Below are positions 3,169 through 4,422 of a DNA stretch of 64,000 nucleotides, in pieces. The stretch is taken from NCBI RefSeq assembly GCF_003334385.1, contig NZ_QOWN01000010.1. One strand, written 5' to 3'. Both the position numbers and the translations under genes were made by a program. A model generated the notes under the pieces. The model saw nothing but the letters and a program-made list of their open reading frames with translations. It was not told the origin of the DNA and did no database searches. The DNA is from Escherichia coli. GTDB lineage: Bacteria; Pseudomonadota; Gammaproteobacteria; Enterobacterales; Enterobacteriaceae. Positions within the stretch are counted from its first letter, which is position 1. Every line of letters begins with the position of its first letter.

Positions 3169-4422
3169 ATGTGCGAACATCATCATGCCGCGAAGCACAT
3201 CCTGTGCTCGCAGTGTGACATGCTGGTGGCGTTACCGCGCCTTGAGCATGGTCAGAAAGCGGCATGTCCCCGGTGTGGCACAACGTTAACCGTGGCGTGG
3301 GATGCCCCTCGGCAGCGTCCCACCGCCTATGCGTTGGCTGCACTGTTCATGCTGTTGCTGTCCAACTTGTTTCCTTTTGTGAATATGAACGTTGCAGGAG
3401 TTACCAGTGAAATTACATTACTGGAAATTCCCGGCGTGCTTTTTTCTGAGGACTACGCCAGCCTCGGCACCTTTTTCCTGTTGTTTGTGCAACTGGTTCC
3501 CGCGTTTTGTCTGATAACCATTCTGTTACTGGTGAATCGCGCGGAATTACCGGTCCGTTTAAAAGAGCAACTGGCACGGGTGCTTTTTCAACTCAAAACC
3601 TGGGGAATGGCGGAGATTTTCCTCGCGGGTGTGCTGGTCAGTTTCGTTAAACTGATGGCTTACGGCAGCATTGGGGTAGGCAGCAGCTTTCTCCCCTGGT
3701 GTTTATTTTGTGTCCTGCAACTGCGCGCTTTTCAGTGCGTTGATCGTCGCTGGTTATGGGACGACATCGCCCCGATGCCAGAACTGCGCCAGCCGCTAAA
3801 ACCAGGCGTCACGGGGATACGTCAGGGGCTGCGTTCGTGCTCCTGTTGTACGGCAATCCTTCCTGCTGATGAACCCGTGTGCCCGCGTTGTAGTACCAAA
3901 GGGTACGTTCGGCGTAGAAACAGCCTGCAGTGGACACTCGCGCTGCTTGTAACGTCCATCATGCTGTATCTTCCGGCTAATATTTTGCCCATCATGGTGA
4001 CGGATTTATTAGGCTCGAAGATGCCGTCGACGATTCTCGCTGGGGTCATTCTGTTATGGAGCGAAGGCTCTTATCCCGTCGCTGCGGTGATCTTTCTGGC
4101 CAGTATTATGGTGCCAACGTTAAAGATGATCGCCATCGCGTGGCTGTGTTGGGATGCCAAAGGGCATGGCAAGCGCGACAGTGAAAGAATGCATTTGATT
4201 TATGAAGTTGTTGAGTTTGTAGGCCGCTGGTCGATGATTGACGTTTTCGTTATCGCGGTGCTCTCGGCGCTGGTGCGTATGGGAGGTTTAATGAGTATTT
4301 ATCCGGCAATGGGTGCATTAATGTTTGCTTTAGTCGTCATAATGACAATGTTTTCTGCTATGACGTTTGACCCGCGTTTGTCGTGGGATCGTCAACCTGA
4401 ATCAGAGCATGAGGAGTCCTGA
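3169..4422 (+). CDS. pqiA: Paraquat-inducible / intermembrane transport protein PqiA (inner membrane)
   Basis: 417-aa ORF; two repeated halves each opening with CxxC...CPRC; hydrophobic segments; followed by pqiB and pqiC. Confidence 0.95.
   Translation: MCEHHHAAKHILCSQCDMLVALPRLEHGQKAACPRCGTTLTVAWDAPRQRPTAYALAALFMLLLSNLFPFVNMNVAGVTSEITLLEIPGVLFSEDYASLGTFFLLFVQLVPAFCLITILLLVNRAELPVRLKEQLARVLFQLKTWGMAEIFLAGVLVSFVKLMAYGSIGVGSSFLPWCLFCVLQLRAFQCVDRRWLWDDIAPMPELRQPLKPGVTGIRQGLRSCSCCTAILPADEPVCPRCSTKGYVRRRNSLQWTLALLVTSIMLYLPANILPIMVTDLLGSKMPSTILAGVILLWSEGSYPVAAVIFLASIMVPTLKMIAIAWLCWDAKGHGKRDSERMHLIYEVVEFVGRWSMIDVFVIAVLSALVRMGGLMSIYPAMGALMFALVVIMTMFSAMTFDPRLSWDRQPESEHEES

What the first reader, a model, noticed from the sequence alone, without database searches (positions are those of the whole stretch)
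3169..4422. PqiA internal duplication with paired CxxC...CxxC motifs
Each half of PqiA begins with a four-cysteine motif (residues ~13-37 CSQCD...CPRCG and ~224-241 CSCCTA...CPRCS) followed by hydrophobic segments. This indicates a tandem duplication with a possible zinc ribbon at the start of each repeat. The pqiABC operon is tightly coupled, with a 5-nt pqiA-pqiB spacer and a 4-nt pqiB-pqiC overlap.
Basis: seen in the sequence. Interest (0 to 1): 0.25.

Follow-up and report, generated by a model that had tools for sequence, protein, structure and literature searches.

The report
PqiA duplicated modules with zinc ribbons
The E. coli inner-membrane lipid-transport protein PqiA really is built from two related halves that each start with a four-cysteine zinc-ribbon motif, but this architecture has already been published for its paralogue LetA and for PqiA's own zinc ribbons, so the finding is correct but ordinary.

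Summary
Window 3169-4422 (+) is E. coli pqiA, identical to K-12 MG1655 and present in all 5,426 complete E. coli genomes. Cysteines sit at 13/16/33/36 and 224/227/238/241. The two halves align with all four Cys pairs in register (24% identity, z=15; profile-profile E=9e-45). Pfam finds two PF04403 domains. In 122 diverse homologues the eight motif cysteines are kept in 94-99%, against 0-28% for the other seven. An AlphaFold2 model (pLDDT 94) superposes on the solved LetA/YebS structure 9n8w (TM 0.87-0.92).

Santarossa et al. (Nature 2026, PMC13017536; bioRxiv 2025) showed that LetA consists of two modules, each a zinc ribbon plus a four-helix membrane domain. It binds about two zinc atoms, does not tolerate Cys mutations, and still works when its ribbons are replaced by those of E. 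coli PqiA.

One detail is wrong: the pqiA-pqiB spacer is 4 nt (CAGT), not 5. The 4-nt pqiB/pqiC overlap is correct. The duplication is ancient. Split two-gene versions exist, and their N- and C-type modules are orthologous to the E. coli halves.

Verdict: real, correctly read, already known. Low interest.

The parts
3169..4422 (+). pqiA coding sequence (417 aa plus stop), the inner-membrane subunit of the PqiABC MCE lipid-transport system
   Evidence: ORF. 100% identical to E. coli K-12 pqiA. NCBIfam equivalog NF011683 scores 844 bits against a cut-off of 562.
3158..3163 (+). Shine-Dalgarno-like AAGGAG, 5 nt upstream of the pqiA ATG
   Evidence: Read directly from the sequence.
3202..3303 (+). 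N-terminal zinc ribbon (ZnR-N, residues ~12-45). Ligand codons are C13 (3205-3207), C16 (3214-3216), C33 (3265-3267) and C36 (3274-3276). Motif is CxxC-x16-CxxC.
   Evidence: Cys kept in 97-99% of 122 diverse homologues. Model strands at 10-12, 18-21, 30-32 and 39-42. Aligns to the LetA ZnR-N.
3304..3768 (+). N-terminal transmembrane domain (TMD-N, residues ~46-200): four TM helices, an interfacial helix and three short periplasmic strands
   Evidence: Pfam PF04403 at 49-200, E = 3.8e-39. Model elements H49-67, E71-75, E78-82, H86-93, H97-122, H129-162, E167-170 and H174-190.
3769..3828 (+). Cytoplasmic linker (residues ~201-220) between TMD-N and the second zinc ribbon
   Evidence: Least conserved segment among close homologues, 0.66 identity. 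No regular secondary structure in the model.
3829..3918 (+). Central zinc ribbon (ZnR-C, residues ~221-250). Ligand codons are C224 (3838-3840), C227 (3847-3849), C238 (3880-3882) and C241 (3889-3891). Motif is CxxC-x10-CxxC. C226 is an extra, non-conserved Cys.
   Evidence: C224/227/238/241 kept in 94% of 122 homologues, C226 in only 7%. In register with ZnR-N in the self-alignment.
3919..4392 (+). C-terminal transmembrane domain (TMD-C, residues ~251-408), including the conserved GRWSMIDVF motif at residues 352-360
   Evidence: Pfam PF04403 at 253-408, E = 3.9e-53. GRWSM found at residue 352. G352, W354 and D358 are invariant in A1. The motif is described for LetA in PMC13017536.
4411..4416 (+). 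GAGGAG Shine-Dalgarno for pqiB, lying inside the last codons of pqiA, 10 nt before the pqiB ATG
   Evidence: Read directly from the sequence.
4423..4426 (+). 4-nt pqiA-pqiB spacer (CAGT)
4427..6067 (+). pqiB (546 aa), the periplasm-spanning MCE protein
   Evidence: NCBIfam NF008070, 862 bits. RefSeq annotation.
6064..6627 (+). pqiC (187 aa), the outer-membrane lipoprotein. Its start overlaps the pqiB stop by 4 nt (ATGA).
   Evidence: NCBIfam NF033620, 285 bits..

Best explanation
The region is E. coli pqiA. PqiA is a pseudo-dimeric inner-membrane protein made of two homologous 'LetA modules'. Each module is a small cytoplasmic Cys4 zinc ribbon followed by a four-helix, tetraspanin-like transmembrane domain with a short periplasmic beta-sheet. 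By analogy with its solved paralogue LetA, each CxxC...CxxC motif binds one zinc ion. The two ribbons pack against each other on the cytoplasmic face, and the second one is the covalent link between the two membrane domains. Their role is mainly structural: they stabilise the fold and the association of the two halves, and may modulate transport allosterically. One PqiA sits under the hexameric PqiB MCE tunnel, which reaches the PqiC lipoprotein ring at the outer membrane, and together they form a phospholipid conduit across the envelope. Tight translational coupling of pqiA, pqiB and pqiC (4-nt spacer with an internal SD, then a 4-nt overlap) fits co-assembly. Shown here: homology of the halves, selective conservation of the eight cysteines, the predicted fold and its match to LetA, and the operon structure. 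Shown by others for LetA: zinc binding, Cys essentiality and functional interchangeability with the PqiA ribbons. Inferred: zinc binding and the structural role in PqiA itself.
For: Identity. Duplication: z = 15, blastp E = 3e-10 with the Cys in register; hhalign E = 9.4e-45; two PF04403 domains. Cys conservation: the eight ligand Cys are kept in 94-99% of 122 homologues at 29-46% identity, against 0-28% for the other seven. Chance expectation for two motifs is about 1e-5. Structure: AF2 pLDDT 94.3, pTM 0.91, with beta-strands at each motif and repeated TM topology. The Foldseek top hit is LetA 9n8w_A at E = 2e-25, TM 0.87/0.92 and rmsd 2.4 A over 403 columns, followed by weak claudin and TARP hits. 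Sequence match to YebS/LetA 9n8w is E = 1e-43 with all Cys aligned. Literature (PMC13017536): LetA consists of two ZnR+TMD modules, carries about 2 Zn per molecule by ICP-MS, does not tolerate Cys mutants, and the swap with PqiA ZnRs is functional. Modules as independent units: a split two-gene form followed by MCE and lipoprotein genes, with N-N and C-C orthology.
Against: No metal analysis, Cys mutagenesis or solved structure of PqiA itself was found (one search returns only LetA). Pfam zinc-ribbon families match only below threshold, E = 0.04-10. Seven of 122 full-length homologues lack the central ribbon, and LetA lacking ZnR-C is partly functional, so the second ribbon is not strictly required for transport. 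The authors note that metal specificity of such domains can depend on conditions.
Confidence: 0.93

Rival explanations
1. The Cys4 sites are redox- or iron-responsive switches rather than inert structural zinc sites. They could be rubredoxin-like knuckles or oxidisable zinc-thiolate centres. Oxidative stress, the condition under which pqiA was first found to be induced, would then change the ribbon dimer and so regulate lipid transport.
For: The second knuckle CPRCG resembles the rubredoxin CPxCG knuckle (sequence; the resemblance rests on my own knowledge). The LetA authors leave open an allosteric or regulatory role and caution that metal preference can depend on conditions. Enterobacterial PqiA carries extra conserved Cys and His next to the ribbons: C2, H4-6, H10 and C226.
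Against: ICP-MS on LetA found only zinc enriched among 80 elements. Apart from the cysteines, no ribbon residue in LetA was sensitive to mutation, and the ribbons are interchangeable between paralogues. Both results favour a generic structural role. There is no direct evidence for redox regulation.
Confidence: 0.05
2. The similarity of the halves and the paired cysteines are coincidental, a result of hydrophobic composition bias plus chance CxxC motifs, and have no functional meaning.
For: The raw pairwise identity of the halves is low at 24%. Membrane proteins can give inflated alignment scores.
Against: Composition-preserving shuffles give z = 15. hhalign gives E = 9e-45. Two motifs arise by chance at about 1e-5. 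The eight Cys are selectively conserved across the family. The solved structure of the paralogue shows the pseudo-dimer and the bound metal.
Confidence: 0.01
3. The ribbons are docking sites for a cytoplasmic partner, such as an unidentified energising ATPase or a regulator, rather than purely structural elements.
For: Zinc ribbons often mediate protein-protein contacts. The energy source of the Pqi and Let transporters is unknown.
Against: Deep mutational scanning of LetA found no mutation-sensitive surface residues in the ribbons. The divergent PqiA ribbons (41% and 28% identity) substitute functionally. Non-Cys ribbon residues are among the less conserved parts of PqiA even in close relatives, at 0.71-0.76 identity.
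Confidence: 0.03

Closest known systems
LetA (YebS) of E. coli, PDB 9n8w/9n8x (Santarossa et al., Nature 2026, PMC13017536)
   Same: Same family (TIGR00155 PqiA/YebS) and same two-module ZnR+TMD architecture. All eight Cys align. The GRWSM-psi-D-psi-F motif is present in the C module. The predicted PqiA fold superposes at TM 0.87-0.92. Both are encoded just upstream of an MCE protein. The PqiA ribbons functionally replace those of LetA.
   Different: About 28% identity. PqiA lacks LetA's ~25-residue N-terminal extension and has a short Cys/His-rich tail instead. The ZnR-C spacer is 10 residues in PqiA against 11 in LetA. The partner is PqiB (three MCE domains plus a needle) with an additional lipoprotein, PqiC, rather than the seven-ring LetB. 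PqiA has no solved structure and no metal measurement in the sources searched.
Split PqiA/LetA-like module pairs (two adjacent single-module genes, e.g. P. aeruginosa per PMC13017536; metagenomic locus L002 here)
   Same: Each gene encodes one Cys4 ribbon plus one PF04403 membrane domain. The pair is followed by MCE (MlaD-domain) and PqiC-like (ABC_trans_aux) genes. The modules are orthologous to the E. coli N and C halves.
   Different: The two modules are separate polypeptides whose genes overlap by 4 nt, instead of one fused chain.
Eukaryotic tetraspanin-superfamily four-helix proteins (claudins, TARPs)
   Same: Weak structural resemblance of a single PqiA membrane domain to claudin-15 and TARP gamma subunits (Foldseek probability 0.8-0.99, TM about 0.4-0.5 on the target). 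The same resemblance is reported for LetA.
   Different: They have no zinc ribbon, no pseudo-dimer and no known transport function. The E-values here are not significant (0.1-0.4).
Generic Cys4 zinc-ribbon and rubredoxin-like knuckle domains (Pfam DZR, Zn_ribbon_* families)
   Same: CxxC-xn-CxxC with two beta-hairpins, and a CPxC(G) second knuckle.
   Different: Only sub-threshold Pfam matches, E = 0.04-10. The ribbon is fused to a membrane domain.

Membership tests
PqiA (NCBIfam NF011683 equivalog) within the PqiA/YebS family (TIGR00155) | Whole-protein score above the curated cut-off | tested here: met
   NF011683 scores 844 bits against a cut-off of 562. TIGR00155 scores 662 bits against 260.
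PqiA/YebS (LetA) family | Two copies of the PF04403 membrane domain in one chain | tested here: met
   PF04403 at 49-200 (E = 3.8e-39) and at 253-408 (E = 3.9e-53). The halves are homologous by hhalign, E = 9e-45.
PqiA/YebS (LetA) family | Tetracysteine CXXC-Xn-CXXC motif preceding each membrane domain (n quoted as 11-18 in PMC13017536) | tested here: met
   Motifs at 13-36 (n = 16) and 224-241 (n = 10). The value n = 10 lies just outside the range quoted from 20 sequences, but it is the commonest value (43 of 115) in the 122 homologues examined here.
PqiA/YebS (LetA) family | Conserved GRWSM-psi-D-psi-F motif in the C-terminal module | tested here: met
   GRWSMIDVF at residues 352-360. G352, W354 and D358 are invariant in A1.
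PqiA/YebS (LetA) family | Fold: a pseudo-symmetric pair of four-helix domains with periplasmic beta-sheets and two cytoplasmic ribbons, as in 9n8w | tested here: met
   AF2 model with pLDDT 94.3. Foldseek to 9n8w_A gives TM 0.87/0.92 and rmsd 2.4 A. This compares a prediction with a solved paralogue; it is not an experimental PqiA structure.
PqiABC system | Encoded in an operon with a three-MCE-domain PqiB and the lipoprotein PqiC | tested here: met
   pqiB (NF008070, 862 bits) and pqiC (NF033620, 285 bits) lie immediately downstream, with a 4-nt gap and then a 4-nt overlap. I did not count the MCE domains myself; the equivalog match covers 8-545 of PqiB.
Zinc ribbon (functional definition) | Stoichiometric zinc bound by the four cysteines | not testable with these tools
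   Shown for LetA by ICP-MS, about 2 Zn per protein. No measurement for PqiA was found.
Zinc ribbon (Pfam sequence families DZR, Zn_ribbon_*) | Significant match to a curated zinc-ribbon profile | tested here: not met
   The best matches are DUF5817 at E = 0.038 and DZR at E = 0.17, all below threshold. The ribbon assignment therefore rests on the motif, its conservation, the predicted hairpins and the LetA structure, not on Pfam membership.

The most novel reading that the evidence does not exclude
The two Cys4 ribbons of enterobacterial PqiA form an oxidation-sensitive zinc-thiolate switch. The lineage-specific neighbouring residues would contribute: the MC(E/D)xHH...H tail and the extra Cys226. 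The switch would couple redox stress, the condition under which pqi was discovered as paraquat-inducible, to the activity or stability of the lipid transporter. My evidence does not exclude this reading and does not specifically support it.
Probability: 0.05. Interest if true: 0.5.

Novelty: already known. Interest (0 to 1): 0.08.

Why it matters
PqiA/LetA proteins define a transporter family unlike any other, and they feed phospholipids into MCE tunnels that help maintain the Gram-negative outer membrane. The duplicated ZnR+TMD module is the basic building block of that family. That architecture, the zinc binding and the essentiality of the cysteines were established experimentally for LetA in 2025-2026, and the PqiA ribbons were shown to be interchangeable with those of LetA. 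This finding therefore adds no new biology. Its value is as a correct sequence-only recognition of a known feature. The only gaps left are direct measurements on PqiA itself.

Tried and rejected
1. Pfam zinc-ribbon profiles on PqiA gave only sub-threshold hits, so they cannot be used as evidence.
2. A PDB sequence search for a solved PqiA found none; only LetA/YebS matched.
3. Literature searches for PqiA-specific metal, cysteine or cryo-EM work found nothing beyond the LetA paper and the PqiC/PqiB papers.
4. The promoter and terminator consensus scan of 2900-7100 gave counts at or below the shuffle expectation, so it says nothing about pqi regulation. A literature search on the SoxS/pqiA promoter gave only transcriptomic mentions.
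5. The word-indexed homologue search returned only relatives at 81% identity or more. In these all 15 Cys are conserved, so the set cannot discriminate. The 50%-clustered representative search was needed to separate ligand from non-ligand Cys.
6. I considered a recent tandem duplication and rejected it. The halves are 24% identical, and the N and C modules are separately orthologous to the split-gene forms.
7. I considered chance and composition bias and rejected them.

Full report
**What is at the coordinates**

Window 3169-4422 (+) is a single 417-aa ORF. The 3.7-kb stretch 3040-6700 is 100% identical to E. coli K-12 MG1655. It is present in all 5,426 complete E. coli genomes searched, where it is annotated pqiA-pqiB-pqiC, flanked by uup upstream and rmf/fabA downstream. 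NCBIfam assigns the three proteins to the PqiA, PqiB and PqiC equivalog or exception models, far above their cut-offs.

**Checking the observation**

- **Cysteine positions.** The protein has 15 cysteines. CxxC pairs lie at 13-16 (CSQC), 33-36 (CPRC), 224-227 (CSCC) and 238-241 (CPRC). A fifth pair, CLFC at 178-181, lies inside a hydrophobic segment.
- **Hydrophobic segments.** Each four-Cys motif is followed by several hydrophobic stretches.
- **Chance expectation.** Two CxxC-x(5-30)-CxxC motifs arose in only 2 of 200,000 shuffles of the same protein.
- **Operon junctions.** The pqiA stop codon (4420-4422) and the pqiB ATG (4427) are separated by 4 nt (CAGT), not 5. A GAGGAG Shine-Dalgarno sequence sits inside the last pqiA codons. 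The pqiB stop and the pqiC start overlap in ATGA at 6064-6067. The 'tightly coupled' description stands apart from that one-base error.

**Are the halves homologous?**

- Residues 1-210 and 211-417 align locally over 180 columns at 24% identity. The score is 113 against 32 +/- 5 for shuffled sequences (z = 15), and blastp gives E = 3e-10.
- C13, C16, C33 and C36 fall exactly on C224, C227, C238 and C241.
- Profiles of the two halves, cut from an alignment of 100 homologues, align with hhalign at probability 100% and E = 9.4e-45 over 196 columns.
- Pfam independently finds two PF04403 (PqiA) domains, at 49-200 and 253-408.

**Are the cysteines conserved?**

The word-indexed search returned only close Enterobacteriaceae relatives at 81% identity or more. 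In these all 15 cysteines are kept, so that set cannot discriminate.

The exhaustive search of 50%-identity representatives gave 122 full-length homologues at roughly 29-46% identity. In this unfiltered set:

| Cysteines | Conserved in |
|---|---|
| C13, C16, C33, C36 | 97-99% |
| C224, C227, C238, C241 | 94% |
| The other seven, including C226 of 'CSCC' and the C178/C181 pair | 0-28% |

The metal ligands of the second motif are therefore C224 and C227, not C226.

The N-terminal spacer is almost fixed at 16 residues (107 of 118). The central spacer varies from 8 to 22 with a mode of 10, which is the E. coli PqiA value. Seven homologues of 380-393 aa lack the central motif altogether.

**Structure**

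An AlphaFold2 model built from the 100-sequence alignment is confident (mean pLDDT 94.3, pTM 0.91). It shows short paired strands at each Cys motif: 10-12, 18-21, 30-32 and 39-42 in the first, and 221-223 and 230-232 plus bridges in the second. Each motif is followed by the same order of elements: TM helix, beta-hairpin, short helix, long TM helix, broken TM helix, strand, TM helix.

Foldseek against the PDB gives one significant hit, LetA chain 9n8w_A (E = 2e-25, TM 0.87/0.92, rmsd 2.4 A over 403 columns). A tail of non-significant claudin and TARP matches to one membrane domain follows. By sequence, PqiA matches YebS/LetA (9n8w, 9n8x) at E = 1e-43 with all eight cysteines aligned. No solved PqiA chain is in the PDB copy.

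**What is already known**

Santarossa et al. ('LetA defines a structurally distinct transporter family', Nature 2026, PMC13017536; bioRxiv 10.1101/2025.03.21.644421) report the following:

- LetA consists of two related 'LetA modules' of about 25% identity. Each is a cytoplasmic zinc ribbon followed by a four-helix transmembrane domain, and the two form a pseudo-twofold intramolecular dimer.
- Each ribbon is two stacked beta-hairpins with a CXXC-Xn-CXXC motif.
- ICP-MS shows about two zinc atoms per LetA.
- Mutations of the metal-binding cysteines are not tolerated and lower the protein level.
- Deleting ZnR-N abolishes folding and function, while deleting ZnR-C is partly tolerated. Some homologues lack ZnR-C.
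- Modules also occur as two adjacent genes, for example in P. aeruginosa.

The PqiA ribbons themselves were tested in the swap experiment.

**Additional checks made here**

One 212-aa single-module homologue (P0205) lies in a metagenomic contig in this arrangement: N-type module gene, C-type module gene (4-nt overlap), MlaD-domain protein of 534 aa, ABC_trans_aux lipoprotein of 183 aa. This is a split pqiA followed by pqiB-like and pqiC-like genes.

The deposited gene call for the N-type module starts at an internal ATG and cuts off the first CxxC. The ORF from an upstream TTG restores CPSC-x16-CSRC. The C-type module carries CHMC-x10-CPRC.

The E. coli N half scores best against the split N module (243 against 153). 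The C half scores best against the split C module (520 against 94). The duplication therefore predates the separation of fused and split forms. It is ancient and is not a recent tandem duplication in E. coli.

**Mechanism**

The best-supported reading (confidence about 0.93) is as follows. Each Cys4 motif binds one zinc in the cytoplasm. The two ribbons pack together and, with ZnR-C acting as the covalent linker, stabilise the pseudo-dimer of membrane domains. That pseudo-dimer sits beneath the PqiB hexamer and passes phospholipid into the MCE tunnel towards PqiC.

- **Shown here:** homology of the halves, selective Cys conservation, the predicted fold, the operon anatomy.
- **Shown by others for LetA:** zinc binding, Cys essentiality, ribbon interchangeability.
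- **Inferred:** the same for PqiA itself.

Rival readings are not excluded but have no specific support. They are a redox- or iron-responsive switch, and a docking site for an unknown cytoplasmic partner. The LetA mutational scan and the ribbon swap argue against sequence-specific roles. Chance or composition bias is refuted.

**Verdict**

The feature is already known, so interest is low. The remaining open items are direct zinc and mutagenesis data for PqiA itself. A minor curiosity is the set of lineage-specific Cys and His residues next to the ribbons.

Noticed in passing
window 3169-3201 (PqiA residues 1-11): A short Cys/His-rich N-terminal tail, MCEHHHAAKH, precedes the first zinc ribbon. 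The pattern MC(E/D)xHH...H with Cys2 is kept in 116 of 117 close enterobacterial homologues but is absent from distant ones (C2 in 0 of 122). It has low model confidence. It could be an additional weak metal site or have no function.
   Followed up: partly
window 3508-3510, 3700-3711, 3736-3738, 3844-3846, 4147-4149 (PqiA C114, C178/C181, C190, C226, C327): Seven non-ligand cysteines are invariant in close relatives (117 of 117, apart from C2 in 116 of 117) but rare in distant homologues (0-28%). They include a CLFC pair inside the fourth TM helix of the N module and the extra Cys in 'CSCC'. The reason for their lineage-specific conservation is unexplained.
   Followed up: partly
proteins P0158, P0161, P0173, P0184, P0190, P0223, P0247 (homologues, not in the window): Seven of 122 full-length PqiA/LetA-like representatives (380-393 aa) lack the central four-Cys motif entirely. 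This fits the published remark that some homologues lack ZnR-C.
   Followed up: no
homologue set: The central ribbon spacer ranges from 8 to 22 residues with a mode of 10 in 115 homologues. This is wider than the 11-18 range quoted in the LetA paper from 20 sequences. E. coli PqiA itself has n = 10.
   Followed up: yes
L002 3312-4004: The deposited gene call for the split N-type module (3441-4004, 187 aa) starts at an internal ATG and omits the first CxxC knuckle. An ORF from TTG 3312 (230 aa) restores the full CPSC-x16-CSRC motif, so the call is probably truncated at its 5' end.
   Followed up: yes
window ~3087-3111: A perfect 7-bp inverted repeat, GCCTGAT...ATCAGGC, lies in the uup-pqiA intergenic region. 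It has no T-run after it and the terminator scan did not flag it. It might be a uup 3' stem-loop or a regulatory site.
   Followed up: no
window 41696-42118 (+), 52801-52879 (-), 22796-22880 (-), 58766-58808 (-): Rfam gathering-threshold hits elsewhere in the window: a cspA-type thermoregulator 5' UTR (159 bits), naRNA4/CssrE (69 bits), one tRNA (57 bits) and the ES036/CssrF sRNA (38.5 bits, just above threshold).
   Followed up: no
window 6663-6677 (+) and 7092-7068 (-): Terminator-like hairpins followed by T-runs lie just after pqiC and just after fabA on the minus strand. They are consistent with the operon ends, although the overall terminator count is at the shuffle expectation.
   Followed up: no
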